Source: Clostridium sp. (lineage in GTDB: Bacteria > Bacillota > Clostridia > Clostridiales > Clostridiaceae). From it: 32,000 nucleotides of DNA. The DNA lies in NCBI RefSeq assembly GCF_051650885.1, contig NZ_JBOFRG010000313.1, forward strand, positions 17,354 through 49,353. The letters are read 5' to 3'. Under the pieces are notes generated by a model. The model worked only from the letters and a program-made list of their open reading frames with translations, did not search any database and was not told where the DNA came from. Each line of letters starts with the position of its first letter. Position 1 is the stretch's first letter. Shown here piece by piece: positions 9,109 through 32,000 of this stretch. The translations under genes were made by a program, and so were the position numbers.

Positions 9109-9738
9109 ATGAAGATTTATGATATAACACATACAATAGAAAATAATATGACAGCATATTGTAAAGAGGAAAAAGTACAAATAAAAAGCTTGTGGTCAGT
9201 AGAAAATGAGGGATATAACGTTACTGAATTAATGATAAATACTCATAGTGGAACTCATATAGACATGCCAAAGCATTTATTCCAAAATGGAGAAGACTTA
9301 GAGTGGTTTACAGAGGATAAATTTATAGGAAAGGCTTTTGTTTTAGATTGTAGAAAACAAAAAGAGATAAGTAAAAGTTTTATTGAAAAGAATATAAAGG
9401 ATATTAAAACTTACAGATATTTGTTATTTAAAACAGGTACAGAAGGATTATGGGGAAATGAAGCATATCTAAAGGAATATATTACTTTTACAAAAGATGC
9501 TGTAGATTTCCTAGGAAATTTAGATAATTTATATGGTATAGGAATTGATGCAATTTCGATAGATGGAGTAGACTGTGAAGAGTTAGAAAATCATAAAGGA
9601 ATATTAGGTAGTGGAAAGATAATTTTAGAGAACTTATGTAATTTGAAGGATTTAGAAGGTGAATTTGAAATAATTATAGCACCACTAAAGATTAAAGCAG
9701 GGGACGGAGCACCAGCAAGAATTTTATTAAGAAAATAG
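9109..9738 (+). CDS. cyclase-family protein (kynurenine formamidase-like metal hydrolase)
   Basis: HSGTHIDMPKH matches the HxGTHxDxPxH signature of the putative cyclase / arylformamidase family. ATG 9109 (MKIYDITH) has a GAAAGGTG RBS. The ORF-track start at 9070 lacks one. Confidence 0.7.
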   Translation: MKIYDITHTIENNMTAYCKEEKVQIKSLWSVENEGYNVTELMINTHSGTHIDMPKHLFQNGEDLEWFTEDKFIGKAFVLDCRKQKEISKSFIEKNIKDIKTYRYLLFKTGTEGLWGNEAYLKEYITFTKDAVDFLGNLDNLYGIGIDAISIDGVDCEELENHKGILGSGKIILENLCNLKDLEGEFEIIIAPLKIKAGDGAPARILLRK

Positions 9739-9739
9739 C

Positions 9740-9779
9740 AAAAGTTCAGTAGAAATTAAAGAGTTTCTACTGAACTTTT
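9740..9779. terminator. bidirectional terminator
   Basis: 16-bp stem AAAAGTTCAGTAGAAA / TTTCTACTGAACTTTT between convergent genes. Confidence 0.85.
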
Positions 9780-9780
9780 C

Positions 9781-11037: not shown

Positions 11038-11039
11038 AA

Positions 11040-11864: not shown

Positions 11865-12092
11865 TAATTTTCACCTCTAAAAGTATTTTATTTACAATTT
11901 TACCATAAAAGATAAAAAATAAACATTAATGTAATAAAAAAGAAAGAAAATAGAAAAAAATACATGTTTTTGAGGCATTAGGTTTAAATATTAATCTTAT
12001 TATGATAAAATATTTCAGACTAAACTTATCAGAATACTTAATAGAATAAGTGAAGGAGAAAAAATTAATACTATCATTAAGGAGTGAATTAA

Positions 12093-13235: not shown

Positions 13236-13236
13236 T

Positions 13237-14450: not shown

Positions 14451-15851
14451 ATGATTTTACAAGAAATAAAAGAGTTTTTTACTGTTTTTGGAGCGCCAAT
14501 ATTTTTACCAGTAGTTATTTTTATAATATGTAAGGCACTTAAGGTTAATAGTAAAAAAGCCTTTTTATCAGGTTTATATGCAGGGGTAGGACTGCAAGGA
14601 TTTATGCTTTTAATAGGAGCATTTACACCTATCATAATGCCAGTAATTAAACAAATGGTATCATCCACAGGCATTAACTTACCTGTCTTAGATTTAGGAT
14701 GGCAAACAAGTGCCATAATAGCTTATTCAAGCAAGATAGGATTAATATTCTTTGTATTTGCGATTATAATCCAACTTGTACTTTTTGCAAGTAAGTGGAC
14801 AAATATATTTTTACCATCAGATTTATGGTTAAATTACACATATATGATATGGGGTTCAATGCTTTATGTAGCTACCAAAAATGTGTGGTTATCTATGATT
14901 TTTATGGTAGTTATAATGATGTATAGTATTTTAAACATAGAAGTTATATGTAAGAGTTGGTCGAAATATTACAAGTATCCAAACTGTACTATTATTTCAA
15001 TGCATAATACAGAAGTAACACTTCTTTTATATGTATTAGACCCTATATTTAATAAGTTTGGAGTAAATAAACTAAAGTTTAATCCAGAAAAAATGAAAGA
15101 AAAATTAGGTGTATTTGGAGAACCAGGAACAATAGGGCTTATACTTGGGATATTCATTGGTATATTAGGAAATATAAAAAGACTCGGATCAATGAAAGCA
15201 TGGGGGCAGATAATGACGCTAGGAATAGTGCTTGCCACTTTAATGATTGTATTTCCTAAAATAGCAGAAATTTTTGGAAAAGCTTTTTCGCCAATGGCAG
15301 AAGCGGTAAATAAAAATTTAGATAAAGAAAAAAAGTCAAAAAGAAAGAGAGACTGGTATATAGGTGTAGATGATGCAACAGGGTATGGTGAACCAGCTAC
15401 GTTAATATCAGGAACATTATTAATTCCAATAATGATAGTAATGGCTTTAATATTACCAGGAAACAAAACACTTCCAATGGTTGATTTAATCGCCCTTCCT
15501 TTTATGGTGGAAGCTTTAGTTGCAATGACTAAGGGAAATATGCTTAAGATTATAATCACAGGTGGAATTTGGTTTTCAATAGGCCTTTATACATGTTCAG
15601 CTTTAGCACCAATATACACACATGCAGCAATAGTTGCAGGAGTGGCACTTCCTGTTGGAGCACTTTATATAACAAGCTTTAACATGATGGCACAACCGAT
15701 AGCATCATTAATGTTCTTTGCATTTTTAACTCAAAATTATATATTAATTGGATTTATTATAGTGTTATATTTTGTACTATATTTTATAGTTATGAGAAAT
15801 TTAGATAGAATACATAATTATATAGATAGACAGGCTGAAAAAAATATATAA
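14451..15851 (+). CDS. PTS galactitol-family EIIC permease (GatC-like)
   Basis: 466 aa polytopic membrane protein. The N-terminal pattern (FGAPIFLPVVIFIICKALKV...AFLSGLYAGVGLQGF...LDLGWQTS) parallels E. coli GatC. A FGEPGTIGLILGIFIGILG block is also present. Monocistronic between terminators. Confidence 0.65.
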   Translation: MILQEIKEFFTVFGAPIFLPVVIFIICKALKVNSKKAFLSGLYAGVGLQGFMLLIGAFTPIIMPVIKQMVSSTGINLPVLDLGWQTSAIIAYSSKIGLIFFVFAIIIQLVLFASKWTNIFLPSDLWLNYTYMIWGSMLYVATKNVWLSMIFMVVIMMYSILNIEVICKSWSKYYKYPNCTIISMHNTEVTLLLYVLDPIFNKFGVNKLKFNPEKMKEKLGVFGEPGTIGLILGIFIGILGNIKRLGSMKAWGQIMTLGIVLATLMIVFPKIAEIFGKAFSPMAEAVNKNLDKEKKSKRKRDWYIGVDDATGYGEPATLISGTLLIPIMIVMALILPGNKTLPMVDLIALPFMVEALVAMTKGNMLKIIITGGIWFSIGLYTCSALAPIYTHAAIVAGVALPVGALYITSFNMMAQPIASLMFFAFLTQNYILIGFIIVLYFVLYFIVMRNLDRIHNYIDRQAEKNI

Positions 15852-20371: not shown

Positions 20372-22273
20372 ATGAAGAAAGAGATGAGAAAATTTATATT
20401 TGGGAAAACATTATTATTTGTAGGGATTTTAGCATATGTTATACTTTTTAAAACCATTTTTGGTGAAGATAATATATTAATTGCAGTAATGTCTGTAACA
20501 GGTATGCTTATGTATATGGGAAGAGACTTAACAGGGGAGCTTTTAAAATATACATTTAAATTTATTGGATTTTATTTATTAATAGGGATTGGAACATTTA
20601 TTGCATCAGGGAATATGTGGATTGCAATATTCATTAACTTTGCAATTGTATTTTTTATTAGCTACAGTTTTGGACATGTTCTGAAAAATGCAATGTACTT
20701 ACCATTTACACTACTATATTTATTTTTATTAGCTTACCCAGTAACAGTACATGCGTTACCTATGAGGCTTATAGCATTAGTAGTAGGAGCACTTGTGATT
20801 GTAGCACCACAGTTATTAATAAATAAAAATAAAGTGCCAAAAGCAAGTTCTAAAATAATAAATGGATTATTTGATTTATTAGATAAAAAAATAGAATTTG
20901 TTTTAGAAGAGAAAAAAACAAAAGAGTTAGATGCACAAATAAATGGAATGATGACAAGCTTAAAAAATATCATTTATGATAAAAAAGAAAAAAAGTTTTA
21001 TATAAGTGCAGAAGGACGAGGATACTTAGATATACTTGCAAGTTTAGACAAGCTTAATCATTTAATGGTAAATGGAACATTAGATGAAAAAGCTTTAAAT
21101 GATATAAAAAAGGGAATTTCAGAGGTTAAAGCATTATTTAATAAAGAAGAAAATAATGTAACAGAATATGTTAAAGAAATAAAAGAAAATTATAAAAATA
21201 GTGTAAGCATTTCTAATATTCAAGGAATAGGTTCAATAATATTATTAATTGATACATTAAAGAATTTAGAGCAGAAAAAAACTGTTAAAACAAATATAAT
21301 AAAAGGAATAAAAGAGGATGCATATGGATTAAAGAATATTAAATTTAATTCAGTTAGAATAAGTTATGCATTACATGTAGCAATTGAAGTAGCAATTGGA
21401 TGTTTTATTATGGATTACTTCCACTTACATCAAGGAAGATGGATAATGTATACTGTGTTATCACTTACAAATCCAATATTAGAAGTTACAAAAAACAAGG
21501 CAAAAGACAGAGTAATAGCAACAATAATTGGAGCAGTATTTATAGGAATAGTTTTTAGTTTTATAAAGAATCCAACAATACGAACTTTAGTAGTTTTAGG
21601 AGCAGGATATGCAAATGTATATTGTGTAACATATGCACAAAAAATGATTACTGTAACAATGTCAGCTGTTGGAGCTGCTATTATGGCAAATGAAGCTTAT
21701 GTTGGAGTGGGACATATAGTTACAAATCCAGTATTATTAGCATTACAAAGAATAGGATTAATACTACTTGGAGTAATTATCGCATTAATAATCAATAGAT
21801 TTTTCTTTAGATATGATGTTAAAAAAGTAAATGATAATTTAGAAGGGGTATCTAGAAATCTAACTAGGGACTTAATAAGCAATCTAGATAAGATTTTAAG
21901 TGGAGAAAAGTTAGATGATTATATCAATAATGTTTATATTTTAATGACACAGGTAAATGAAACTATAAAAACAAATATGAAAATAGTAAAGAAGAATGAT
22001 TTAAATGAAAATGAAGAACATATTTTAAGTCGAAGATTAAGCTTAGTAGCAATGGTATATGAATTAAATAAATTCATTAATAATGAGAAAATATCAGAAG
22101 AGAAACGAATTAAATTAGAAAATGTAATAGTAGAATTAAACATAGAAAACAAAAAAAAGAAAGATGAAATTATAAATGAAGGAATACAATGGGCTAAATT
22201 TGAATCAGTAGAAGAAAAAGTAGTAGTTAGCTTTTTAGTTCAAATAAAAAGAGAATATAAAAGTATAATATAA
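20372..22273 (+). CDS. FUSC / aromatic-acid-exporter-like integral membrane protein
   Basis: 633 aa. Two hydrophobic multi-TM blocks (aa ~10-150 and ~330-480), each followed by a long charged helical region. This bipartite architecture matches YccS/YhfK/FUSC proteins. The family call rests on architecture only. Confidence 0.5.
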   Translation: MKKEMRKFIFGKTLLFVGILAYVILFKTIFGEDNILIAVMSVTGMLMYMGRDLTGELLKYTFKFIGFYLLIGIGTFIASGNMWIAIFINFAIVFFISYSFGHVLKNAMYLPFTLLYLFLLAYPVTVHALPMRLIALVVGALVIVAPQLLINKNKVPKASSKIINGLFDLLDKKIEFVLEEKKTKELDAQINGMMTSLKNIIYDKKEKKFYISAEGRGYLDILASLDKLNHLMVNGTLDEKALNDIKKGISEVKALFNKEENNVTEYVKEIKENYKNSVSISNIQGIGSIILLIDTLKNLEQKKTVKTNIIKGIKEDAYGLKNIKFNSVRISYALHVAIEVAIGCFIMDYFHLHQGRWIMYTVLSLTNPILEVTKNKAKDRVIATIIGAVFIGIVFSFIKNPTIRTLVVLGAGYANVYCVTYAQKMITVTMSAVGAAIMANEAYVGVGHIVTNPVLLALQRIGLILLGVIIALIINRFFFRYDVKKVNDNLEGVSRNLTRDLISNLDKILSGEKLDDYINNVYILMTQVNETIKTNMKIVKKNDLNENEEHILSRRLSLVAMVYELNKFINNEKISEEKRIKLENVIVELNIENKKKKDEIINEGIQWAKFESVEEKVVVSFLVQIKREYKSII

Positions 22274-22325: not shown

Positions 22326-22542
22326 TTGAAAATAAATAAAAAATAAGGGGGAAATTAGCGAGAAAGCTAAGAAAAAACAAAGTTTTATGCAAAGGTATTA
22401 AAAAAAGAAGCACATTTATTATATAAATTCATAGAATGTTAATATAAAAAGACAAAAGAATATGATATTATATGTGCAAAGGTATAAGAAAAAAATAAAG
22501 AGGAGTGATTTTATAGAATAGATTAAATGCAAAAACAATGTA

Positions 22543-22685
22543 AAGCGCCAGAGCTAATATTATATTAGCTGACGAGGATGGGGAGTTTATCGAACTTTCG
22601 GCGGGTGCCCCACGGTATCGCACTACCGTTAACAGTTAGCAAAGCTATGGAGTAATTCGTAGTACAAATCTAACTTGGTGTTAAA
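22543..22685 (+). ncRNA. glmS: glmS ribozyme (GlcN6P-activated self-cleaving leader)
   Basis: AAGCGCCAGAGCTAAT...ATTAGCTGACGAGGATGGGGAGTTTATCGAACTTTCGGCGGGTGCCCCACGG matches the conserved core AGCGCCAGAACU...GACGAGGAUGGAGGUUAUCGAAUUUUCGGCGGAUGCCUCCCGG. P3 (CGGTA..TACCG) and P4 (GTTAG..CTAAC) hairpins follow. Lies ~130 nt upstream of glmS. Confidence 0.88.
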
Positions 22686-22816
22686 AGCCTTCAATATTAA
22701 ATTTTAGAAGATTCCTAGGATTATTATACCTACTTTAATATTCTTTTAGCTAGGACTGAAGTTTATAGAAGATGAAAATTAAATAAACAAGTGATATGAA
22801 GGAAGGATGAACTTTT

Positions 22817-24643
22817 ATGTGCGGAATAGTAGGATATGTTGGAGATAAAAAAGCAACTAACTTTTTAGTAGAGGGATTATCAAAGCTGGAGTATAGAGGA
22901 TATGACTCAGCTGGTGTCGCAGTAAATGAAGGAGGAAACCTTGTAGTTAAAAAGAAAAAGGGTAGATTATCTAACCTTGAAGAAGAATTAACTACGAACC
23001 CTTTAAATGGATGTGTCGGGATTGGACATACTAGATGGGCAACACATGGAGCACCATCAGATAGAAATTCACACCCACACTTAAGCAATGATGGAAGTAT
23101 AGCTGTTGTACACAATGGTATAATAGAAAACTACATCGAACTTAGAAAATTTTTAGGAGAAGAAGGTTATACTTTCAAATCAGATACTGATACAGAGGTA
23201 ATACCAAACCTTGTACAATATTACTATAATGGCGACCTTTTTGAGGCGGTAGTTAAAGCTACTGAAAGATTAGAGGGAAGCTATGCAATTGGAGTAGTTT
23301 CACAAAATGATGAAAACACTTTAATTGGAGTAAGAAAGGATAGTCCATTAATTGTTGGACTTAATGATACTGAAAATTACATTGCTTCAGATATACCGGC
23401 AGTATTAAGTTATACAAGAAAAGTATACTTATTAGAGGATGATGAATTTGTTATCATGAACAAAGAGGGAGTAACTCTTGTAACTAGAGATGGCAAAGAA
23501 ATCGATAAAGAAATTTTTAACGTAACATGGGATGAAAGTGCAGCCGAAAAAGGTGGATTTGATTCATTTATGTTAAAAGAAATACATGAGCAACCAAAAG
23601 CGATTAGGGACACGATGACTTCTAGGATATCATTAGAACATGGTGTTTTTTTTGACGACTTTAACATCTCAAAAGAAGAACTAGATGCTATTGATAGAAT
23701 ATATATCGTTGCTTGTGGAACTGCATATCATGCAGGACTTATGGGTAAAGCATCTATTGAAAGATTGGCTAAGATACCAGTTGAGGTAGATATAGCATCT
23801 GAATTTAGATATAGAAATCCATTAGTTACAGACAAATCTTTAGTAATAATCCTTAGTCAATCAGGAGAAACAGCAGATACTTTAGCAGCACTTAGAGATT
23901 GTAAAAAAGCTGGTGCAAGAGTATTAGTTGTAACAAATGTTGTAGGAAGTACAATGTCAAGGGAAGCAAACCATGTTATATATACAATGGCAGGTCCTGA
24001 GATTTCTGTTGCTTCAACAAAAGCATACACTACACAAGTATTAGTTATGCATATGATAGCAATTTACTTTAGTGAATTAAGAGAGACAGTTACTAAAGAA
24101 AACTTAAATAAAATAAAAGAAGAGATGTTAATGCTTCCAGAAAAAATTGAGGAAGCTTTAAATATAAAAGAAGATATAGAAAAAGTGGCTAAAGAAGTTA
24201 AAGATGAAAAAGATCTTTATTTCTTAGGAAGAGGAATGGATTATTCATTAGCTCTTGAAGGGTCATTAAAACTTAAGGAGATTTCTTATATCCATTCAGA
24301 AGCATATGCTGGTGGAGAATTAAAGCATGGACCAATTGCTTTAATAGAAGAAGGAACTAAAGTTATATCAATATTAACTCAAAAGAACTTAATAGATAAA
24401 ATGATAAGTAACGTAGTAGAGATAAAATCTAGAGGGGCTATAAACTTTGGAATAACATTCAAAAGTGAAGAGAAAGCATGTCAGGTATTAGATAATATAT
24501 TATTTATACCAGAAACACATGAAATTTTAGCACCAATAGTTTGCGCAGTAGCACTTCAGTTATTAGCATATTATGTGGCAAGCTTAAAAGGTTTTGATAT
24601 AGATAAACCAAGAAACTTAGCTAAATCTGTAACTGTAGAGTAA
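22817..24643 (+). CDS. glmS: glutamine--fructose-6-phosphate aminotransferase (isomerizing)
   Basis: 608 aa. MCGIVGY Ntn-amidotransferase start, two SIS domains (SQSGETADT), and C-terminal ...PRNLAKSVTVE typical of GlmS. Confidence 0.97.
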   Translation: MCGIVGYVGDKKATNFLVEGLSKLEYRGYDSAGVAVNEGGNLVVKKKKGRLSNLEEELTTNPLNGCVGIGHTRWATHGAPSDRNSHPHLSNDGSIAVVHNGIIENYIELRKFLGEEGYTFKSDTDTEVIPNLVQYYYNGDLFEAVVKATERLEGSYAIGVVSQNDENTLIGVRKDSPLIVGLNDTENYIASDIPAVLSYTRKVYLLEDDEFVIMNKEGVTLVTRDGKEIDKEIFNVTWDESAAEKGGFDSFMLKEIHEQPKAIRDTMTSRISLEHGVFFDDFNISKEELDAIDRIYIVACGTAYHAGLMGKASIERLAKIPVEVDIASEFRYRNPLVTDKSLVIILSQSGETADTLAALRDCKKAGARVLVVTNVVGSTMSREANHVIYTMAGPEISVASTKAYTTQVLVMHMIAIYFSELRETVTKENLNKIKEEMLMLPEKIEEALNIKEDIEKVAKEVKDEKDLYFLGRGMDYSLALEGSLKLKEISYIHSEAYAGGELKHGPIALIEEGTKVISILTQKNLIDKMISNVVEIKSRGAINFGITFKSEEKACQVLDNILFIPETHEILAPIVCAVALQLLAYYVASLKGFDIDKPRNLAKSVTVE

Positions 24644-24680
24644 AAATTATTATTAAAATTAAGATTTATGTTGTTGTAAA

Positions 24681-24740
24681 AAAAAGTTTGCGTATATATA
24701 AAAAACTTTGCATATATATAAAAAACTTTGCCTAAAGTAA
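24681..24740 (+). repeat. three contiguous 20-bp direct repeats (putative TnsB-binding sites of the transposon end)
   Basis: AAAAAGTTTGCGTATATATA / AAAAACTTTGCATATATATA / AAAAACTTTGCCTAAAGTAA. Copies 1 vs 2 match 18/20 and copies 2 vs 3 match 15/20. They are preceded by TGTTGTTGTAAA (24669-24680). Confidence 0.6.
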
Positions 24741-24780
24741 AAGGTATTTTACAGAAAAGTAAAAGGAGAGGTTAATAGAT

Positions 24781-24936
24781 ATGAATGATAAATTAGAGTT
24801 ATTGTTAAATGAGTACAAAGAAACAGAAAAATGTTTGGTTATGGGATTAGAGTGGTTACCAAATAATGATTTTGCAAAAGCAAAATTGGATGTAGTAAAA
24901 ATGATAATAAAAGATTTAGAAACTTTAAAAATATAG
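24781..24936 (+). CDS. small hypothetical protein (51 aa) just inside the transposon end
   Basis: Not in the ORF track. ATG 24781 is preceded by an AAAAGGAGAGG RBS. Translation is MNDKLELLLNEYKETEKCLVMGLEWLPNNDFAKAKLDVVKMIIKDLETLKI. A weak hairpin at 24944-24978 follows. No recognisable family. Confidence 0.4.
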   Translation: MNDKLELLLNEYKETEKCLVMGLEWLPNNDFAKAKLDVVKMIIKDLETLKI

Positions 24937-25014
24937 AATAGATAAAGAGGTGTTGATTAAATTCGACATCTCTTTTTGATTTAGATACAATATATTTATT
25001 AAGGAGTGATGAGA

Positions 25015-26475
25015 ATGATTACATATTTTCCAAAAGTATATGATGATGAATTAATGTATAGCATTATAGGAAGATATCATAAATATAGCGGAAACAATAA
25101 AACTTCAGAAACAACAAAAGAATTATTTAATAAAAAAATTTGTGCATCTAAGGATGTACAAGGATATATGAGAGCATTCGCAAAAAATGTTGGGAATATT
25201 ATGAAGAAAAATGAAATGGAACTTATAAACAATCACACACTAATACCAGTGTATGGTTTTTTTTCTTCAAAAGAGAAAGCAAGAAAAATTTTAAGTGTGG
25301 TTTTACATAAGGCTTCGTTAGATGTTATTCGTGAATTGGGTGATAATGGGAGTAATATTACAAAAAAAATAAATATCTATTATTGTCCAATATGTTCAAA
25401 TGATGAGTTTGAAAGAAATGGAGAAGCTTATATTCATAGAACACACCAAGTAAGAGGAGTTGTAGTTTGCGAAAAGCACAAATGTAAATTATATGAGTAT
25501 TCTGAAGAGCTAAAGAAAAATACCTATATTATATTGAAAAGAGAAAACTTGGTGAAAAATGTAGAATATTATGAGAATGAAATATATTGGAATATAGCAA
25601 GAACAGTTCATCAAATTCTTAATTCGTGGCAGTACGGGCAGAAAGAAAAAATAATAAATGAATTTAAAGTGAAGTTAAAAGAGAGAAATTTAATTATGGA
25701 TGGACATAGTGAGAGATTAAGAACTAAAAAGTTAGTTGAAGAATTTGAGAAAAAATATAGTAATGAAATTTTAAAGGAATTGGGTTGTGAAGTAAAACAA
25801 GAATCAAATAGTTGGTTAAAAAGAATATTAGTTAAAAAGAGAAATCAACAATACCTAAGATATATATTAATTAGTGAGTTTTTAGGAGAGAGAGATAAGG
25901 TGTTAAATACAAAAAGAAAAGAAAGTTCGAATAAAAAAGGAATTTGTCAAAATCCTTTTTGCGAAAATTATAATAATATTAATTTAGAATATGAAAATAA
26001 GAGGAAAAATAAAAAAGGAGATAAGTATATAGTTACATATAAGTGCAACTGCGGATATGTATATACAAGATATTTAAAAGGAAATATAAAGAGTAGATTA
26101 AAAGTTATTAGCTATGGGGAAAAATGGGAAGATGAATGTTTGAAACTAATAAAAAGGAAAGAAAAGTTAGCAAATATATCTAAATTAATGGAGTGTGATG
26201 AACGAGCAATAATTAAGTTTGCGCAGATGAAAAATTGTATAGAATTAGTAAATACTGATAGGAGAATGGATTTAACAAAGAAACTTGGTAATAATGGAAT
26301 TTGCAGTGAGGAGATAAAAATGAAACATATAGAAGTAATTGAAGATTATATAAAAAATACTCCAAATTGCACACAAAAAAAAATAAGAAAAATATATTCA
26401 AAAGAATATTATTATTTATATAAAAAGTTCAAAGAAGATTTAGATGATATGATAGTAAGATATAATCTGGAATAA
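25015..26475 (+). CDS. tnsD: TnsD/TniQ-family Tn7-like target-site selection protein
   Basis: N-terminus ITYFPKVYDDELMYSIIGRYHKYSG, then HTLIPVYGFF and the zinc motif YYCPICSNDEF..NGEAYIHRTHQVRGVVVCEKH. These parallel Tn7 TnsD (FPVPYSNELIYSTIAR..., HTLFPLYAPF, YCPDCV..YGEAFW.R.W....CPKH). A second Cys cluster CQNPFCEN...YKCNCGYVY is present. AAGGAG RBS sits 8 nt before ATG 25015. Confidence 0.85.
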   Translation: MITYFPKVYDDELMYSIIGRYHKYSGNNKTSETTKELFNKKICASKDVQGYMRAFAKNVGNIMKKNEMELINNHTLIPVYGFFSSKEKARKILSVVLHKASLDVIRELGDNGSNITKKINIYYCPICSNDEFERNGEAYIHRTHQVRGVVVCEKHKCKLYEYSEELKKNTYIILKRENLVKNVEYYENEIYWNIARTVHQILNSWQYGQKEKIINEFKVKLKERNLIMDGHSERLRTKKLVEEFEKKYSNEILKELGCEVKQESNSWLKRILVKKRNQQYLRYILISEFLGERDKVLNTKRKESSNKKGICQNPFCENYNNINLEYENKRKNKKGDKYIVTYKCNCGYVYTRYLKGNIKSRLKVISYGEKWEDECLKLIKRKEKLANISKLMECDERAIIKFAQMKNCIELVNTDRRMDLTKKLGNNGICSEEIKMKHIEVIEDYIKNTPNCTQKKIRKIYSKEYYYLYKKFKEDLDDMIVRYNLE

Positions 26476-26477
26476 TA

Positions 26478-26522
26478 AAATAAGCATAATAGAACCTGTG
26501 GTTTCTATTATGCTTATTTTTA
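26478..26522 (+). terminator. Rho-independent terminator after tnsD
   Basis: 17-bp stem AAATAAGCATAATAGAA / TTCTATTATGCTTATTT followed by a T-run. Confidence 0.85.
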
Positions 26523-26559
26523 GTGTCCAAGGAATGAGTAAATAAATTAGATGCAAATA

Positions 26560-26588
26560 TTGTAAATATATATCATAAATAGTAATAT
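26560..26588 (+). promoter_or_regulatory. candidate sigma-A promoter of the three-gene operon
   Basis: TTGTAA, a 17-nt spacer, then TAATAT. The -10 element ends 21 nt upstream of ATG 26610. Confidence 0.4.
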
Positions 26589-26609
26589 TAAACTTGAGAG
26601 GTGAGGAAA

Positions 26610-27737
26610 ATGAAAAAGGTTGAAGTAACAAGTTTCCCAGCAAGCTATGGAGATTCATTTTTATTAGAAATAATTAATGATATGGAAACATATCGGATTT
26701 TGATTGACTGTGGATTTAAGAGAACATACTTAAATTGTTTAAAAGAGAAAGAATTAAAAAAATTGGATATGTTAATATTGACACATATTGATGAAGACCA
26801 TATTGGAGGAGCTTTAGAAATATTGAATCAGATACCGAAAATAGATATAAAAGAGATATGGTTTAATGATTTATATAAAATATATGAATATAAAAAAATA
26901 AAAACGACAATGGAGCATATTAGTGAAAACAAAGGGAAACAAGGAGAGGTAGGATATGCAAAAGCAAAAACAATTTCCAATTATTTGTATGAGAATTATT
27001 TAGAGGTATGGAATAAAAATCATACTCTAATTTGTTGTGATGCTAAAAAATATAAAGAAATAAAAATATTAAATGGTTTGGGAAAAATTATTTTATTATC
27101 ACCGAATATAGAGAGAGTAAATGAGTTGTTTTTGGCATGGATAGCACACATGAGAGACGTAAAGTTGAAATATGACACAAATGAAATCAATAGTTTTTAT
27201 AAATTTATTAAAAGTAATGATTATATTGCAACAAGAGTGCAGAATAATTGTGGGAATAATGGGCTAGATATAGAAAAGCTAGCAGATTATGATGGAAATA
27301 AAAATAGTGTTGTGAATAATTCATCAATTGCATTTTTGATAGAGATATTTGATAAAAAAATATTATTTTTAGGTGATGCTAACGGTAAGGATGTAGTGAA
27401 TGCATTGAAAGAATATATGAGTGATAAAAATATAGATAATTTAAAAGTAGATTTAGTTAAAGTGAGTCATCATGGTAGCAAAAATAATACAGACAAAGAG
27501 TTTTTTAGTATTTGCAAGTCAGATAAATATTTAATATCTACAAATGGGCACAGATTTAACCATCCAGATATGGAATGCTTAAGTAAAATAATTTATCATC
27601 AGAAAGAATATAAAACCATTATATTTAATTACTTAAGAGAAGATGTGAAAAGTAAATTGAATAAAAAAGAACTGAAACAGAGTTTAAATTATGAAATAGA
27701 AATGCCTGAACAAGAAGGGATACTTATAGAGGTGTAA
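26610..27737 (+). CDS. stand-alone ComEC/Rec2-type metallo-beta-lactamase-fold hydrolase (putative nuclease)
   Basis: LILTHIDEDHIGGA (nt 26781-26801 encode THIDEDH) and VKVSHHGSKNN (SHHGS at 27465-27479) match the xTHxDxDHxGG and HHGS blocks of ComEC-like MBL domains. No TM segments. GAGGTGAGG RBS before ATG 26610. Confidence 0.7.
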   Translation: MKKVEVTSFPASYGDSFLLEIINDMETYRILIDCGFKRTYLNCLKEKELKKLDMLILTHIDEDHIGGALEILNQIPKIDIKEIWFNDLYKIYEYKKIKTTMEHISENKGKQGEVGYAKAKTISNYLYENYLEVWNKNHTLICCDAKKYKEIKILNGLGKIILLSPNIERVNELFLAWIAHMRDVKLKYDTNEINSFYKFIKSNDYIATRVQNNCGNNGLDIEKLADYDGNKNSVVNNSSIAFLIEIFDKKILFLGDANGKDVVNALKEYMSDKNIDNLKVDLVKVSHHGSKNNTDKEFFSICKSDKYLISTNGHRFNHPDMECLSKIIYHQKEYKTIIFNYLREDVKSKLNKKELKQSLNYEIEMPEQEGILIEV

Positions 27738-27740
27738 AAT

Positions 27741-29183
27741 ATGGAAATGAATAAAAATTATATATGTAAAATATATAGTAATAACAAAGAATTTTTAGGA
27801 ACAGGATTTTTTATAAATGATAAACAAATGTGTACAGCTGGACATTGTGTTAAAGATATTGAGAAGGGTTATGTAGAGTTGATAAAAAAGAAATATTGCT
27901 TCACAAATGTGAAGAAAATTGAAGAGTTGGACTTTGCAATTGTTATATTTGATGAAGAGGTTTTTGATAGGAGGAGTATAGAATTTAATATAGATTTAGG
28001 GAGGACTAAGAAGGAAAGTTATACATATGGTTATACAAATCTATATAGCGAGGAATCGGAGGGGATGAAATTAAAGCTAGAAGAGTATCCGACAGAATAT
28101 GGAGATAAAATAATTGATGAAACACTTATGATTAGAGGCTGCAATGATGATAGAAGTTGGAAGGGAATATCAGGAGCTCCTGTTTGGAGTAGTGATGGCA
28201 TTAGGGGAATTGTTTTAAAAGAAATTTATGGTGATGGAATTCAAACAAGATTAGAAGCTATTTCATTTGATAAAATAATAAATTATTTAATAGAAAAAAA
28301 AGAAGAGGAATTATTAACGGGCTTTCCAAGGGCGACGATAGGAAAAAGGTTAAATGAGAGAGTTAGAGAAAATAAAAATAGATGTCAAGAGTTATATAGA
28401 GATATCGAACATAGAGAAGCAATAGAAAAAATAGAACCAAACTGTTTTAATTTTGAAAATAATATCAATGAAAAGCATATCTTAAATGAAATAACTGAAG
28501 TACTAGAAAAATATGCATTATTATTAGATGATGAAAGTGTAGAAAGGACAGGTAGATATTTTAGAGATATTAATGAAAAAATAGCAATAGTAGAGGAATA
28601 TATAGGTAAAGATTTTAATAGTATGTATATAGTGCTATGGATGTTAGCAGAAGGAAAAAAGTTTGCACCTAAAATAGGAAAAATATTGTGTGAGAGAAAT
28701 GGAGAGTTTTATGAAAGAGATATATTCATAAGTAGACATAATGGCGAAGGGAAAATAAAATTTTTGATTCCGTTCATCAGTTATAGTGAAAATTTGAAAG
28801 AAGGGATTGAAAATTTAATTACAAGTATGAGTAGAGAAGATAGTACTTTGATAAATTTAAATGACATACAACTTGATGGTGAGGCAGTAGCTTGTCTAGG
28901 ATATATAGAGCAATATGAATTAAGAAAAGCGGTAGAAAAAAGATATTCTGGGGTAGAGATAGAAATTATTGCATTAATAATGTATAACAGTAAAATGTAC
29001 AAGAAGGCAAAAAACATAACAAATAAAAAAGGAGTTATACAACGACAATATATGGACGACATTCAAAATGAAAGTTATAAGTATATGGTATCGACAATTA
29101 GTGAAAAAAAATTGAATTTATTTATATTACCAGTAAATGAATTTAATAAATTTGGACTGGAGAGAGATAATGTTAAAAGATGA
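27741..29183 (+). CDS. fusion protein: N-terminal trypsin-like serine protease plus a C-terminal ~285-aa domain with a PD-(D/E)xK-like motif
   Basis: Catalytic triad context CTAGHCV (His35, nt 27843-27845), LDFAIVIF (Asp64) and GISGAPVW (Ser144, nt 28170-28172). The C-terminal region carries MLAEGKKFAPKIGK and D327-x8-E336-G-K338 (nt 28719-28754). Start is 3 nt after the MBL stop, with an AGAGGTG RBS. Confidence 0.7.
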   Translation: MEMNKNYICKIYSNNKEFLGTGFFINDKQMCTAGHCVKDIEKGYVELIKKKYCFTNVKKIEELDFAIVIFDEEVFDRRSIEFNIDLGRTKKESYTYGYTNLYSEESEGMKLKLEEYPTEYGDKIIDETLMIRGCNDDRSWKGISGAPVWSSDGIRGIVLKEIYGDGIQTRLEAISFDKIINYLIEKKEEELLTGFPRATIGKRLNERVRENKNRCQELYRDIEHREAIEKIEPNCFNFENNINEKHILNEITEVLEKYALLLDDESVERTGRYFRDINEKIAIVEEYIGKDFNSMYIVLWMLAEGKKFAPKIGKILCERNGEFYERDIFISRHNGEGKIKFLIPFISYSENLKEGIENLITSMSREDSTLINLNDIQLDGEAVACLGYIEQYELRKAVEKRYSGVEIEIIALIMYNSKMYKKAKNITNKKGVIQRQYMDDIQNESYKYMVSTISEKKLNLFILPVNEFNKFGLERDNVKR

Positions 29184-31635
29184 GTATAAATATTTAAAAG
29201 AAATCAATAAAAAATATACGATACTTTATATAAAAAAAGAATTTTTGGAGAATGAAGTAATTGAAAAAATTAATTTAGAAGAAATAAAGTATGGACTTGC
29301 TCTTAGCGAGCTATTAATAGGATATAAAAATAATGATTATGTGGAGTTAGCATTAGAATATGCAACAATAATAACAACTGTAGTTAAAGATAAAAAAATA
29401 ATAAAGCGATGTAGTGATATATTAAATAGATTAACAATTTTTACATTTGAAGATGTTCTTAGAAGAAAAGAGAAAGACAAAGTAGAATTGAGTGGAAGTG
29501 GTTTTTCAGGAATGGAAGAACTTGGACACAGAAGAAAATATTTACGAAATCTTGGAAATGAAAAAGTTTTATTAAATAAGTTTCAAGCAGAGTTAAATGA
29601 TGCGATTAACAATTATAAAAATGTAAGTATTTCAGCTTCAACATCTGCAGGAAAATCATATCTAATGCAGAAAAATATTATTGATATGATATCCAAAGAA
29701 AAGGTAATGAAAATTATTTATGTAGTACCGACGAGAGCTTTAATAAGTCAAGTAATGACAGATTTTCAAAGAGAATTGAAAAATATAGGATTAAGTAAAG
29801 AGACAACACTAAGTTGTACGTCACATATTGAAGAAGGAGATTTAAAAGATAGATGCATATTGGTGCTTACACAAGAACGACTAAATCAAATTTTTTTTGA
29901 AGAAGGAATAAATTTAGATATAAATGTTATAGTGGTGGATGAAGCACAGGAAATAGGCGGTGGTGCGAGAGGTGTATTACTTGAGTATGTTATTAATAAT
30001 GCGAAACGAAGATGGGAGAAATGCAATATTATATTCTTAGCACCATTAATTGGTAATCCTGAAACATTTATAGAAAAGTTTAACTTGGAAAAAAGTTATA
30101 GTAAAAAAGAGGAGTTTAGAACTGTTAATCAAAATTTAATATCTTTAGAAAGAATTAGAGGAAAATCAAAAATGGAAATAAGATATGAAAATAGTCATAT
30201 TGGGGAGTTTCCGTATAGAGAAGAAGATTTAAGTAGGAAAGAGAAAAAGATTGCCTATATTTTTAGAAATTTTAATAATAATGAAAATTCCATTATTTAT
30301 TCTAAAATACCGAGTGAAGCTAGAAAGATAGCTATAGAGATAGCTAAGGAGATGGAGGAAGTAATAGATAGTGAAATTGAAATATTTGTAGAATTTTTAA
30401 AAAGTTATATATGTGAACAATATGAATTGGTTGATTTAATAAAAAGAGGTGTAGCATACCATTTTAGTGGAATACCAAGTATTATCAAAAATGGCATTGA
30501 GGAATTAGCAACAAAAGGAAAGTTAAAAGTAATAGCATGTACGACAACTTTGCTAGCAGGCGTTAATGTTCAAGCAAATAATATATATGTATATGAGACC
30601 AAAAAGAAAAATGATGAATTAACAAATTTAGAATTTTGGAATTTAATTGGAAGAGCAGGGCGGATGAAGTATGATGTATGTGGAAATATTATATTAATAA
30701 ATCTTAAGTTAACAGAAGAATTTCCTGAATATAGAAGGGCAGATATTGGGGGAGTGGTTTTTGCAAAGGAAGAAATAATTAATAATGAAAAAAAACAATT
30801 AGAAAATTATATAGAAAAAGCAGATAATGAGTTTTTAGATAAAAATAAGAAGAAAATTTATGAAAATATAGAAAGTACATTAGTTATTGAAGGTTTCTTA
30901 AAAAAAGAAGACGAAAAAATTGAAAAAATAGATAAATTGATAGAAATAAAAATTAAGGAAAATAAAGTGCCAGAAAAAATAGTAAGAAAACTTATAGGAA
31001 TAGATTTAAAAAAATTAAATTTATTATGGGAGAAAATGAATGATTGTGAAAATATTGAGGAATGTATATTAGTAAATCCATTTGCAAAGAATGCAAACAA
31101 GAAATTGATGGAAGTGTTGGGAATTATAAGTGAAATATTTTTAGAGAATAAATATAAAAGCGTAGCGTATAGAGGATATATTGTTAGCAAAGCATTAAAA
31201 TGGATAAGAGAAAATAGTTTTAGACAAATTCTTTTTGAAAATAAAAATATTGCTTTAATGGACAATGAAAAAATAAATAATGAAATAAGTACGGCATTGA
31301 AGGTGATTAATACAGATATACGTTATGAAATGAGTAAATATATTTATGCATACCAAGAAATTTTGAAAGAAATTTTGAAATTACAAAATAAAGAAGTATT
31401 AATAGCTAAAATGCCTAATTATCCATTATATTTGGAGTTTGGAGCAGCAAGAAAAAAAACTTTGGATTTAATGTGTATGGGGTTTATGAGAGAAACAGCT
31501 ATTTTGTTGGAGAGATATGTAAAAAGTGAGGAATTACTTGATATTAAGAAGGAAATAAAAAGTATTAATATTGAGGAAATAACTTGTAGTAATTATATAA
31601 AACAAAGGTTGAAGGAGCAAATAAACATATTGTAA
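29170..31635 (+). CDS. Ski2/Hel308-like superfamily-2 helicase with long N- and C-terminal extensions
   Basis: Motif I SASTSAGKS (GKS at 29650-29658), motif II VVDEAQE (DEAQ at 29938-29949), motif V-like ACTTTLLAGVNVQA, and motif VI NLIGRAGR (30649-30663). ATG 29170 follows GGAGAGAG and overlaps the protease stop by 14 nt. The ORF-track ATG at 29137 has no RBS. Confidence 0.8.
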   Translation: MLKDEYKYLKEINKKYTILYIKKEFLENEVIEKINLEEIKYGLALSELLIGYKNNDYVELALEYATIITTVVKDKKIIKRCSDILNRLTIFTFEDVLRRKEKDKVELSGSGFSGMEELGHRRKYLRNLGNEKVLLNKFQAELNDAINNYKNVSISASTSAGKSYLMQKNIIDMISKEKVMKIIYVVPTRALISQVMTDFQRELKNIGLSKETTLSCTSHIEEGDLKDRCILVLTQERLNQIFFEEGINLDINVIVVDEAQEIGGGARGVLLEYVINNAKRRWEKCNIIFLAPLIGNPETFIEKFNLEKSYSKKEEFRTVNQNLISLERIRGKSKMEIRYENSHIGEFPYREEDLSRKEKKIAYIFRNFNNNENSIIYSKIPSEARKIAIEIAKEMEEVIDSEIEIFVEFLKSYICEQYELVDLIKRGVAYHFSGIPSIIKNGIEELATKGKLKVIACTTTLLAGVNVQANNIYVYETKKKNDELTNLEFWNLIGRAGRMKYDVCGNIILINLKLTEEFPEYRRADIGGVVFAKEEIINNEKKQLENYIEKADNEFLDKNKKKIYENIESTLVIEGFLKKEDEKIEKIDKLIEIKIKENKVPEKIVRKLIGIDLKKLNLLWEKMNDCENIEECILVNPFAKNANKKLMEVLGIISEIFLENKYKSVAYRGYIVSKALKWIRENSFRQILFENKNIALMDNEKINNEISTALKVINTDIRYEMSKYIYAYQEILKEILKLQNKEVLIAKMPNYPLYLEFGAARKKTLDLMCMGFMRETAILLERYVKSEELLDIKKEIKSINIEEITCSNYIKQRLKEQINIL

Positions 31636-31646
31636 ATAAAAAATAG

Positions 31647-31685
31647 AGAAAGACTTGTTATTTTAGAAATAATAAGTCTTTCTAA
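31647..31685 (+). terminator. hairpin terminator after the helicase gene
   Basis: AGAAAGACTT...AAGTCTTTCT stem with an inner TTATT/AATAA extension. It begins 12 nt after the stop codon. Confidence 0.65.
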
Positions 31686-31746
31686 TAAATTTGATTAGAA
31701 TTAGAAAATTTTCTAAGGAATAAAGAGATAGTTAAGATTGCGAGCA

Positions 31747-31790
31747 ATAGCATTAAGTAAAAATATATTTACTTAATGCTATTTATTTTA
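31747..31790 (+). terminator. second perfect hairpin with T-rich tail
   Basis: 15-bp perfect stem ATAGCATTAAGTAAA / TTTACTTAATGCTAT, 6-nt loop, followed by TTATTTTA. Confidence 0.55.
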
Positions 31791-31878
31791 GTATAAATAG
31801 CTTTTAAAACATCTAAAAAGTGTATAAAATGTAATAAAAAGGTTTATAATTGTAGTGTGAATTATAGGGAGATTTAGA

Positions 31879-32000
31879 ATGAGAAGAAAAACAGATAAAG
31901 CAAAACGAAAAGAAAAAAGAGGAACTGGATATTTCGAAGAATACTCTCCATGGATACAGGTTCATGAATTTGGGTCAAAAGGAAGGACTCATAGAATTTT
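31879..32000 (+). CDS. tnsA: Tn7-like transposase endonuclease subunit TnsA, N-terminal 40 aa (3' end outside window)
   Basis: Not in the ORF track. AGGGAG RBS sits 7 nt before the ATG. Translation is MRRKTDKAKRKEKRGTGYFEEYSPWIQVHEFGSKGRTHRI. It parallels Tn7 TnsA RRIKEGRGQGHGKDYIPWLTVQEVPSSGRSHRI (shared pattern RG.G....Y.PW..V.E..S.GR.HRI). Confidence 0.75.
   Translation, partial: MRRKTDKAKRKEKRGTGYFEEYSPWIQVHEFGSKGRTHRI

What the first reader, a model, noticed from the sequence alone, without database searches (positions are those of the whole stretch)
24669..32000. Non-canonical element layout: tnsD sits at the end, ahead of tnsA, with the defence-like operon between them
In canonical Tn7-like elements tnsA abuts the right end and the order is tnsA-tnsB-tnsC-tnsD/tniQ, with cargo placed distal to the transposition genes. 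Here the order is end repeats, 51-aa ORF, tnsD, terminator, three-gene operon, two hairpins, then tnsA. Two readings are possible. (a) It is a single element whose target selector and a cargo module lie upstream of tnsA. (b) Two glmS-targeting elements are stacked, and the proximal one retains only tnsD plus cargo. I found no inverted copy of the TGTTGTTGT/20-mer end anywhere between 24.8 and 31.9 kb, which argues against a complete proximal element. Either way the defence-like module is embedded inside the transposition machinery, so it would move with it.
Basis: inference. Interest (0 to 1): 0.65.

Follow-up and report, generated by a model that had tools for sequence, protein, structure and literature searches.

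The report
Tn7-like transposon with right-end accessory slot
The region is the glmS-proximal half of one 15.8-kb Tn7-like transposon in a Clostridium genome, and its odd gene order (extra target-selector gene plus an anti-phage operon ahead of tnsA) is the usual layout of a clostridial branch of these transposons; this element also carries a spare copy of the small host gene that its insertion cuts off from glmS.

Summary
After glmS come a 5-bp target duplication, a right end (TGTTGTTGT plus three 20-bp TnsB sites), a 51-aa ORF, a TniQ/TnsD gene, a three-gene operon and the start of tnsA.

A contig identical to the window over 7.5 kb supplies the rest. It carries tnsA-tnsB-tnsC, a second tnsD with an in-frame TGA at codon 371, small cargo, a broken IS and a cognate left end with the same 5-bp duplication. 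There are no internal ends.

Reading (a), a single element, fits best. The layout is not unique. Eleven related loci carry a second tnsD upstream of tnsA. One relative is fully delimited by ends and duplication, and the closest relative has tnsD, different defence cargo, then tnsA.

Three qualifications apply.
- The window's upstream TnsD belongs to the clade that normally follows tnsC, not to the upstream clade.
- It lacks the last 78 positions of the Pfam TnsD model, so its activity is doubtful.
- The cargo is the already described HamMAB (MBL nuclease, trypsin-HamA, HamB) Hachiman variant.

The freshest point concerns the 51-aa ORF. It is a transposon-borne copy of a conserved Clostridium gene that natively sits directly after glmS. 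A second, divergent Tn7-like element carries one too.

The parts
22533..22686 (+). glmS ribozyme/riboswitch in the leader of the target gene (host, context)
   Evidence: Rfam RF00234, 105 bits, E 2e-24
22817..24643 (+). glmS, the host gene whose 3' end marks the attachment site
   Evidence: 608-aa ORF; 87% identical to C. thermobutyricum GlmS in locus L011
24664..24668 (.). Left copy of the 5-bp target-site duplication ATTTA. The right copy follows the left end at L001 15935-15939, beyond the window.
   Evidence: Read directly from the sequence
24669..24736 (+). Transposon right end: tip TGTTGTTGT plus three TnsB-type sites 20 bp apart (16-mer cores at 24679, 24699, 24719)
   Evidence: Weight-matrix scores 29-32 bits against 12 bits or less elsewhere. 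Same site offsets from the tip (10, 30, 50) as in relative L010.
24781..24936 (+). orf51a: transposon-borne copy of a small conserved Clostridium gene that natively lies directly downstream of glmS
   Evidence: 66% identical to the resident copy beyond the left end. Native copies lie 12-46 bp after glmS in empty sites. 78% identical to a copy inside the right end of another Tn7-like element, L017. dN/dS 0.14-0.31.
24944..24975 (+). Terminator-like hairpin closing the glmS-orf51a unit
   Evidence: 13-pair stem followed by a T run
25015..26475 (+). tnsD1: intact ORF of a TniQ/TnsD-family target selector that lacks the C-terminal quarter of the TnsD domain
   Evidence: Pfam TniQ plus TnsD, matching model positions 1-277 of 355 at 94 bits, while relatives match 1-355 at 204-300 bits. 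32% identical to tnsD2. Placed in the clade of tnsD genes that follow tnsC.
26477..26520 (+). Perfect 18-bp stem hairpin after tnsD1 (terminator-like)
   Evidence: repeat I19; sequence
26610..27737 (+). hamM: MBL-fold pro-nuclease of a nuclease-protease Hachiman system (cargo)
   Evidence: PADLOC LmuA 3.5e-77 and Avs1a 2e-49. NCBIfam Avs1a 8e-67, below that model's curated cutoff. Described in the literature.
27741..29183 (+). Trypsin-like protease fused to a HamA-like domain (cargo)
   Evidence: The N-terminal 185 aa match trypsin, Avs1b and RT-protease models. tblastn over residues 20-471 hits a gene annotated HamA on a B. cereus plasmid.
29170..31635 (+). hamB: Hachiman sensor helicase (cargo)
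   Evidence: PADLOC HamB 2.6e-159 over the full length; Pfam DEAD and Helicase_C
31647..31783 (+). Two hairpins between hamB and tnsA (about 31647-31683 and 31746-31783). They contain no TnsB sites.
31879..32000 (+). 5' end of tnsA. The gene continues beyond the window, followed by tnsB, tnsC, tnsD2 (in-frame TGA), cargo and the left end, as seen in L001.
   Evidence: L001 is 100% identical to the window over 7,500 nt. Gene table and ORFs.

Best explanation
Window 24669-32000 is the right-end half of a single 15,766-bp Tn7-like transposon. It is inserted, right end towards glmS, 25 nt downstream of the glmS stop codon of a Clostridium close to C. thermobutyricum.

Gene order, shown by sequence: right end (three TnsB sites), orf51a, tnsD1, the HamMAB anti-phage operon, tnsA-tnsB-tnsC, tnsD2 (in-frame TGA at codon 371), a GyrI-like gene, a DUF3781 gene, a broken IS1595-type transposase and the left end (three TnsB sites). 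The same 5 bp, ATTTA, flank both ends.

The interval between the right end and tnsA is a regular accessory slot in this clostridial/Bacillota branch of Tn7-like elements. In relatives it holds a second TnsD-family selector, with or without variable and mostly defence-type cargo. The layout is therefore a family architecture and not two stacked elements, and anything in the slot, including HamMAB, lies inside the ends and moves with the element.

Inferred steps:
- Transposition uses TnsABC plus a glmS-recognising TnsD of the clade that normally follows tnsC.
- In this copy both selectors of that clade look compromised. tnsD1 lacks the C-terminal segment and tnsD2 has a nonsense codon, so the element may now be poorly mobile or immobile.
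- orf51a takes the place of the native glmS-downstream gene, which the insertion has moved 15.8 kb away. This restores a glmS-orf51-terminator unit.
For: Continuation of the window.
- L001 is identical to the window over 7,500 nt. It carries tnsA, tnsB, tnsC, tnsD2, cargo and the left end.

Ends.
- The same 16-mer TAAAAAACTTTGCATA occurs three times in + orientation on the right and three times in - orientation on the left, and nowhere else.
- The tips are TGTTGTTGT and TGTTCTTGT, and ATTTA lies on both flanks.
- The site offsets from the tips match those of L010.

Family layout.
- L010 is completely delimited: tip TGTTATCG at 6983, its inverted copy ending at 17541, and duplication ATTAT. It reads right end - tnsD' - HD gene - tnsABC - tnsD - left end.
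- L067 has the closest TnsA (54% identity). It reads tnsD' - 204-aa gene - methyltransferase - S subunit - PLD/SNF2 helicase - tnsABC - tnsD.
- L008 reads glmS - right end - YaaC-like/DUF3644/SF1-helicase cargo - tnsD' - tnsABC - tnsD.
- L004/L005, L009, L023, L029, L037, L044 and L064 also have a tnsD' upstream of tnsA or directly after glmS.

The clade that follows tnsC is the likely glmS selector.
- L025, L036 and L041 sit at glmS with tnsABC and a single tnsD after tnsC.
- In the tree, only L025's tnsD falls inside that clade; L041's branches outside it, and L036's was not included.

State of the selectors.
- Pfam coverage is, the alignment, and the TGG-to-TGA change.
- No tnsD2 protein product is on record, although TnsC from the same element is listed on two contigs with two MAG protein accessions. 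This is consistent with a pseudogene in both assemblies.
- In E. coli Tn7, every tested C-terminal deletion of TnsD, even 1-498 of 507, lost attTn7 binding but kept TnsC binding (PMC2918618).

orf51.

Cargo identity.
Against: - tnsD1 is not an orthologue of the upstream tnsD' of the relatives. It groups with the tnsD genes that follow tnsC (nearest neighbour of that type in 100 of 100 resamplings). The order tnsD followed by cargo is what the distal half of a canonical element looks like, so the block could have come from another element.
- The shared 5-bp duplication does not prove movement as a unit, because repeated site-specific insertion at the same att site would produce the same duplication.
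- The part beyond position 32000 comes from another assembly (L001), not from the window itself.
- Nothing here tests the activity of TnsD1, TnsD2 or orf51a.
- The closest relatives are only 48-54% identical in TnsA, so no sister element with an empty or different slot at close range was found.
Confidence: 0.75

Rival explanations
1. Fusion of two stacked glmS elements. An older or newer element X (right end - orf51 - tnsABC - tnsD1 - HamMAB - left end) and an element Y (tnsABC - tnsD2 - cargo) sat in tandem. Deletions then removed X's tnsABC and the X-left/Y-right junction, leaving the present chimera.
For: - tnsD1 belongs to the clade of tnsD genes that follow tnsC, and cargo follows it, as in the distal half of a canonical element.
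- tnsD1 lacks its C-terminal segment.
- A full tnsABCD set lies downstream.
- L017 shows that a right end - orf51 - tnsABCDE element exists at Clostridium glmS.
- Identical duplications are expected for stacked site-specific insertions.
Against: - No trace of internal ends. The best site upstream of tnsA scores 6.6 bits against 29-33 bits for real sites.
- The outer right end carries exactly the left-end motif and the same offsets as relative L010, so it is cognate to this TnsB. The L017 right end is visibly different by eye.
- Two deletions are needed.
- Elements with identical ends would, from what is known of Tn7 target immunity, be expected to exclude each other.
- Relatives have the same order inside proven ends.
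Confidence: 0.15
2. tnsD1 is not a target selector but a regulator. It keeps the N-terminal TnsC-binding core and lacks the C-terminal DNA-binding part. It would therefore titrate TnsC and damp TnsD-dependent transposition of this element, or of competitors arriving at the occupied glmS site.
For: - The N-terminal core and both Cys clusters are conserved, and the last 78 model positions are absent.
- In E. coli, C-terminally truncated TnsD proteins (for example Q340Z and W371Z) bind TnsC, do not bind attTn7, and are dominant negative (PMC2918618).
- The ORF is intact and has its own ribosome-binding site and terminator.
Against: - This rests only on analogy with a distant homologue.
- The solved TnsD structures cover only residues 1-318, so the role of the missing part cannot be mapped.
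- Only one sequence of this protein exists in the databases, so selection on it cannot be measured.
- A short but functional selector is equally possible.
Confidence: 0.12
3. orf51a is incidental cargo picked up from a former host and has no role in compensating for the insertion.
For: - The native copy orf51b is intact in this genome, with its own ribosome-binding site.
- The function of the family is unknown, with no Pfam or NCBIfam match.
- Only two element families with such a copy were found.
Against: - Two divergent elements (TnsA 41%, TnsC 32% identical) carry the copy in the same place and orientation, directly inside the right end.
- In L017 the insertion truncates the native gene after 14 nt, so there the transposon copy is the only intact copy seen within the 20-kb locus, which does not reach the left end.
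- dN/dS of 0.13-0.31 is as low as between native copies.
- In the window the copy plus its terminator recreates the native glmS-orf51-terminator arrangement.
Confidence: 0.3

Closest known systems
Tn7 of E. coli (TnsABC+D pathway into attTn7 downstream of glmS)
   Same: - TnsA, TnsB, TnsC and TnsD homologues.
- Ends that start with TGT and carry multiple TnsB sites, close-packed on the right and spread on the left.
- A 5-bp duplication.
- Insertion about 25 nt after the glmS stop codon with the right end towards glmS.
   Different: - tnsA does not abut the right end. 7.2 kb (orf51a, a second tnsD and a defence operon) lie between them.
- There is no tnsE.
- There are three rather than four right-end sites.
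- Two TnsD paralogues are present.
Dual TniQ-TnsD Tn7-like transposons (Faure et al. 2023, PMC10293859; about 1,000 loci)
   Same: Two TniQ/TnsD-family genes in one element. That paper interprets this as two target-selection options.
   Different: - That paper describes the pairs as tandem genes near tnsC, usually one long and one short.
- Here and in the relatives the second gene sits at the other side of tnsABC, next to the right end, often with cargo in between.
- In the relatives the two genes form two separate clades.
- I found no paper that describes this placement.
[quoted passage not shown]
   Same: The target-selection module and the tnsABC operon sit at opposite sides of the element, with cargo between them.
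   Different: - Selection there is RNA-guided (TniQ-Cascade).
- The families are different.
- Here both selectors are protein-only TnsD types.
HamMAB / trypsin-MBL Hachiman (Science 2025, PMC12799240; bioRxiv 10.1101/2025.09.03.673762)
   Same: [quoted passage not shown]
   Different: Nothing architectural differs. Sequence is distant: 25% identity to an annotated HamA. Catalytic residues and the autoinhibitory loops of the MBL protein were not examined.
Integrating phages and islands that carry a replacement for the part of the target gene they displace, for example the 3' end of a tRNA gene (from my own knowledge)
   Same: The mobile element restores at its border what its insertion separates or destroys.
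   Different: - Here a whole small protein gene is supplied rather than a duplicated gene end.
- The element is a DDE/TnsA transposon, not a recombinase-driven island.
- The compensating role is inferred, not shown.

Membership tests
Tn7-like transposons (heteromeric TnsA/TnsB transposase, TnsC, TniQ/TnsD) | TnsA, TnsB, TnsC and a TniQ/TnsD-family gene in one element | tested here: met
   Pfam hits for TnsA_N, HTH_TnsB/Mu-transposase C, TniB/AAA_22 and TniQ+TnsD. tblastn shows 32-52% identity to relatives.
Tn7-like transposons (heteromeric TnsA/TnsB transposase, TnsC, TniQ/TnsD) | Inverted ends starting with TGT that carry arrays of TnsB sites, close-packed on the right and spread on the left | tested here: met
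   Three plus three sites, with start-to-start spacings of 20 and 20 bp on the right and 54 and 67 bp on the left. They score 29-33 bits against 12 bits or less for the background.
Tn7-like transposons (heteromeric TnsA/TnsB transposase, TnsC, TniQ/TnsD) | 5-bp target-site duplication | tested here: met
   ATTTA on both flanks. ATTAT in relative L010.
Tn7-like transposons (heteromeric TnsA/TnsB transposase, TnsC, TniQ/TnsD) | TnsD-type homing: insertion at a fixed distance downstream of glmS, right end towards glmS | tested here: met
   25 nt after the stop codon in the window, 26 nt in L010 and 25 nt in L017.
Tn7-like transposons (heteromeric TnsA/TnsB transposase, TnsC, TniQ/TnsD) | Transposition activity of the encoded proteins on these ends | not testable with these tools
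   Needs a transposition assay. Both tnsD genes look impaired.
Canonical Tn7 gene order (right end directly followed by tnsA-B-C-D(-E)) | tnsA abuts the right end, with no genes between them | tested here: not met
   7.2 kb with five genes lie between the tip (24669) and tnsA (31879).
Canonical Tn7 gene order (right end directly followed by tnsA-B-C-D(-E)) | A tnsD directly after tnsC | tested here: met
   tnsD2 lies at L001 11856-13535, starting at the last base of tnsC, but it has a TGA at codon 371.
Dual TniQ-TnsD Tn7-like elements (Faure 2023) | Two TniQ/TnsD-family genes in one element | tested here: met
   tnsD1 and tnsD2 are 32% identical over their full length.
Dual TniQ-TnsD Tn7-like elements (Faure 2023) | The two genes lie in tandem | tested here: not met
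   They are separated by HamMAB and tnsABC, about 9.9 kb.
Stacked (tandem) Tn7-like elements at one att site | An internal left-end/right-end junction between the two gene sets | tested here: not met
   No site above 12 bits lies inside the element, and no inverted tip is present.
Nuclease-protease Hachiman (HamMAB) | Gene order: MBL-fold gene, then a trypsin domain fused to the N-terminus of HamA, then the HamB helicase | tested here: met
   The definition comes from PMC12799240 and bioRxiv 10.1101/2025.09.03.673762.
Nuclease-protease Hachiman (HamMAB) | Intact protease, MBL and helicase active sites; loss of the HamA nuclease motif; anti-phage activity | not tested
   Residue-level inspection and phage assays were not done.

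The most novel reading that the evidence does not exclude
Tn7-like elements that home to glmS in Clostridium carry, just inside their right end, a surrogate copy of the host's small glmS-downstream gene. Their own insertion truncates that gene (L017) or uncouples it from glmS (this window). The transposon thus repairs the operon it breaks and lowers the cost of occupying the site. In this element the same end-proximal module also holds a C-terminally shortened TnsD, which may act as a TnsC-binding decoy guarding the occupied site.
Probability: 0.4. Interest if true: 0.6.

Novelty: new variant of a known kind. Interest (0 to 1): 0.5.

Why it matters
- **Cargo mapping.** Surveys of Tn7-like elements usually look for cargo distal to tnsD. 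In this clostridial branch a second slot lies between the right end and tnsA and collects defence systems: HamMAB here, a methyltransferase/SNF2 system in L067, and YaaC-like/DUF3644/helicase genes in L008. Searches anchored on 'tnsA next to the end' would misplace the boundary or miss this cargo.
- **Selector pairs.** The paired but phylogenetically distinct TnsD genes on either side of tnsABC give a compact natural system for asking how two protein-only selectors share one TnsABC. L010 is a clean 10.6-kb example.
- **Cost of insertion.** If the orf51 copy really compensates for the displaced host gene, it would be an example of a transposon restoring the function of its own landing site. That bears on why glmS sites tolerate such elements.
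- **Use as a tool.** This particular copy probably cannot be used as it stands, because both of its selectors look impaired.

Tried and rejected
- **Exact look-ups that failed.** The longest HamB and TnsD ORFs and orf51b returned nothing because of start-codon choice or absence from the index. The shorter HamB start gave L001.
- **Word-indexed protein search with TnsD1.** It found only three relatives, so the survey was anchored on TnsA and on a TnsD alignment instead.
- **Genome scan.** It returned only three loci.
- **Vestigial right end upstream of tnsA.** The repeat finder suggested a weak inverted match at L001 7282-7319. The weight matrix ranks it 11th to 13th at 6.3-6.6 bits, so I treat it as chance.
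- **The 5-bp duplication as proof of a single transposition event.** I rejected this argument, because stacked site-specific insertions would share the same duplication.
- **The tnsD2 stop codon as an assembly error or a recoding signal.** This is unlikely. No protein product is on record, although TnsC from the same element is listed on two contigs with two MAG protein accessions. The long intact ORFs elsewhere in the window also fit genetic code 11.
- **Solved structures.** They cover only TnsD residues 1-318, so the missing C-terminus of TnsD1 could not be mapped.
- **L003.** The type I restriction-modification genes upstream of tnsA could not be placed inside or outside that element, because the locus stops before any end.
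- **Family models for orf51.** NCBIfam and Pfam have none.
- **Literature.** I found no description of a tnsD placed upstream of tnsA, or of Tn7-like elements in Clostridium.


Full report
**1. The observation**

- glmS ends at 24643.
- 25 nt later the sequence TGTTGTTGT begins at 24669. Three 20-bp repeats follow, with cores TAAAAAACTTTGCATA at 24679, 24699 and 24719.
- A 51-aa ORF lies at 24781-24936, with a terminator-like hairpin at 24944-24975.
- A TniQ+TnsD protein lies at 25015-26475 (Pfam), closed by a perfect 18-bp hairpin.
- Three co-directional genes follow at 26610-27737, 27741-29183 and 29170-31635.
- Two hairpins come next, then the start of a TnsA-like ORF at 31879 that runs off the window.
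- No further copy of the end motif lies between 24.8 and 32.0 kb.

**2. The rest of the element**

An exact look-up of the HamB-like protein returned contig L001 (NCBI GCA_051651085.1, 16,369 nt). L001 is identical to window 24501-32000 at all 7,500 positions. Window coordinate equals L001 coordinate plus 24,500. The proteins of this element are recorded on two contigs, the longer of 58,222 nt. That length would fit the window's own source.

Downstream of the window L001 carries the following:

| Feature | L001 coordinates |
|---|---|
| tnsA | 7379-8182 |
| tnsB | 8163-10283 |
| tnsC | 10273-11856 |
| Second tnsD reading frame | 11856-13535 |
| GyrI-like/Cass2 gene (- strand) | 13645-14112 |
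| DUF3781 gene (- strand) | 14109-14372 |
| Two fragments of an IS1595-type transposase | within 14628-15487 |

The left end has three sites in inverted orientation at 15788, 15842 and 15909, and it ends ...ACAAGAACA at 15934. ATTTA lies directly outside both tips. The element is 15,766 bp long.

**3. One element or two?**

- A 26-nt weight matrix from the six sites scores them at 29-33 bits. Every other position in the 16 kb scores 12 bits or less, and the hamB-tnsA spacer reaches only 6.3-6.6 bits. No internal end exists, not even a decayed one.
- The right and left sites share one motif. Their offsets from the tips are 10/30/50 on the right and 10/77/131 on the left. The relative L010 has 10/30/50 and 9/76/130. 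The outer right end is therefore cognate to this element's transposase family.
- The identical 5-bp duplication is not independent proof of a single event. Two TnsD-directed insertions at the same att position would duplicate the same 5 bp.

**4. Relatives**

I anchored searches on TnsA and TnsD.
- **L010** (Clostridium sp. MAG) is a compact, fully delimited 10.6-kb element. It reads glmS, 26 nt, tip TGTTATCG at 6983, three sites, tnsD' (577 aa), an HD-domain gene, tnsA-B-C, tnsD, three inverted sites, and the tip at 17541. The duplication is ATTAT, and the insertion sits in the loop of the glmS terminator hairpin.
- **L067** has the closest TnsA found (54% identity). It reads tnsD' (587 aa), a 204-aa gene, an N6-methyltransferase, a specificity subunit, a 1,205-aa PLD/SNF2 helicase, tnsA-B-C, tnsD and restriction-modification cargo.
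- **L008** reads glmS, right end (three 20-bp sites), YaaC-like, DUF3644 and SF1-helicase genes, tnsD' on the opposite strand, tnsA-B-C and tnsD.
- **L004/L005, L009, L023, L029, L037 and L044** have a tnsD' next to tnsA in addition to the tnsD after tnsC. **L064** has a tnsD' directly after glmS.
- **L025, L036 and L041**, from more distant branches, show the canonical arrangement of glmS followed by tnsA with a single tnsD.

The order selector, variable cargo, tnsA is therefore conserved in this branch, and the cargo varies.

**5. The two TnsD proteins**

In a neighbour-joining tree of 22 sequences the upstream tnsD' genes of the relatives form one clade and the tnsD genes that follow tnsC form another. 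Both window proteins fall in the second clade. The nearest neighbour of TnsD1 is of that type in 100 of 100 resamplings. TnsD1 and TnsD2 are 32% identical.

TnsD1 keeps the N-terminal TniQ core and both Cys clusters. It ends about 80-100 residues before all the other members. It matches Pfam TnsD positions 1-277 of 355 at 94 bits, while TnsD2 and the relatives match 1-355 at 204-300 bits.

TnsD2 is full length except for TGA in place of a conserved Trp codon at position 371. None of its possible products is in the protein collection, although TnsC of the same element is recorded on two contigs with two MAG protein accessions. This fits a pseudogene call in both assemblies.

In E. coli Tn7, every C-terminal deletion of TnsD that was tested, down to the loss of nine residues, abolished attTn7 binding while keeping TnsC binding. 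Truncations such as W371Z were dominant negative (PMC2918618). By that analogy neither selector of this copy is safely functional. Alternatively, TnsD1 may be a regulator rather than a selector. This is inference, and the solved structures stop at residue 318.

**6. The 51-aa ORF**

Directly beyond the left end lies a second copy, orf51b, at L001 15959-16114. It is 66% identical in protein to orf51a.

The family is a conserved Clostridium gene. In empty sites it follows glmS by 46 nt in C. thermobutyricum, 12 nt in C. paraputrificum and 15 nt in a third lineage. The upstream synteny (ABC transporters, MarR, GIY-YIG) matches the window. orf51b is 84% identical to the C. thermobutyricum protein, and its ribosome-binding region matches as well. 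It is therefore the resident gene, now 15.8 kb away from glmS.

orf51a is closest (78%) to P0018. In L017/L018/L019, P0018 lies just inside the right end of a different Tn7-like element of the tnsABCDE type (TnsA 41% and TnsC 32% identical to the window's). In that host the native gene is cut after its first 14 nt by the transposon tip. dN/dS for the transposon-borne copies is 0.13-0.31, the same range as between native copies, although only 51 codons are available.

In the window, glmS, 137 nt, orf51a and a terminator mimic the native unit of glmS, 46 nt, orf51 and a terminator. My reading is that the copy compensates for the gene that the insertion disrupts or uncouples. How it was captured is unresolved. 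The function of the family is unknown, with no Pfam or NCBIfam model.

**7. The cargo**

The three genes match PADLOC HamB (2.6e-159), an MBL-fold protein of the LmuA/Avs1a type, and a protein with an N-terminal trypsin-like domain. The rest of that protein aligns with an annotated HamA. This is the nuclease-protease Hachiman system HamMAB. In that system HamB senses DNA, the protease fused to HamA is released, and it cleaves autoinhibitory loops of the MBL pro-nuclease (PMC12799240; bioRxiv 10.1101/2025.09.03.673762). The cargo is therefore a known kind. Its residues were not inspected here.

**8. Comparison with what is known**

Elements with two TniQ/TnsD genes are well documented: about 1,000 loci, described as tandem pairs near tnsC and attributed to in-situ duplication (PMC10293859). 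Defence systems as Tn7 cargo are also well documented (PMC8649781).

By convention the right end is the one upstream of the transposition genes (PMC11406308). I found no description of a second TnsD clade placed between the right end and tnsA with a cargo slot, or of Tn7-like elements at glmS in Clostridium. The searchable library is limited, so this absence is weak evidence.

**9. Verdict**

- The single-element reading is supported, with a confidence of about 0.75.
- The layout is a family trait and not an oddity of this locus.
- The upstream selector of this copy is atypical and possibly inactive, and the canonical selector is a pseudogene.
- The defence operon is a known system riding in a recurrent slot.
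- The most interesting new element is the transposon-borne surrogate of the glmS-downstream host gene.

Noticed in passing
L001 12966-12968 (would be window 37466-37468, beyond the window): The nonsense codon of tnsD2 replaces a conserved Trp at codon 371. By coincidence an E. coli TnsD W371Z truncation was isolated as a dominant-negative mutant (PMC2918618). A 370-aa product here could likewise interfere with TnsD-dependent transposition.
   Followed up: partly
L017 9834-9858 and 10001-10168: In a different Clostridium host a tnsABCDE-type element cuts the native orf55 after 14 nt (ATGAGAGAAGAATT|TGTTGATT). It carries its own intact copy just inside the right end. In that element tnsB is split into 255-aa and 406-aa ORFs and tnsD into 127-aa and 613-aa ORFs, so it may be decaying.
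   Followed up: partly
L010 6960-6982 and 17542-17565: The insertion in L010 sits in the loop of the glmS terminator hairpin (AAGAGCTTAG...CTAAGCTCTT), which it splits into two halves 10.6 kb apart.
   Followed up: no
window 20372-22273: A 633-aa multi-pass membrane protein gene lies between the GIY-YIG gene and the glmS leader. It is absent from the syntenic region of C. thermobutyricum (L011), so it is a lineage-specific insertion next to the att site.
   Followed up: no
window 22533-22686: A canonical glmS ribozyme (Rfam RF00234, 105 bits) lies upstream of glmS.
   Followed up: yes
L001 14628-15487 (- strand): An IS1595/ISXO2-type transposase broken into two ORFs (Zn-ribbon part and DDE part) lies in the left-end cargo. 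This is another sign of decay in this copy.
   Followed up: partly
L003 5270-5345: Just upstream of tnsA lies a palindromic pair, AAATCGGTAAAA ... TTTTACCGATTT, that resembles the TnsB-site core of L010 (AAGTCGGTAAAA). It may be an operator for autoregulation rather than an end.
   Followed up: no
L008 2115-7381; L067 1931-9823; L004 1-1338: The slot between the right end and tnsA, or the region upstream of tnsD', holds other defence-like sets in relatives: YaaC-like + DUF3644 + SF1 helicase (L008), methyltransferase + S subunit + PLD/SNF2 helicase (L067), and a 1,526-aa SIR2_2 protein (L004).
   Followed up: partly
window 25006-25015: tnsD1 has three possible in-frame starts (GTG 25006, ATG 25009, ATG 25015). 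The public annotation uses 25015. My first protein queries started at 25012 and so carried one extra N-terminal residue, with no effect on the results.
   Followed up: yes
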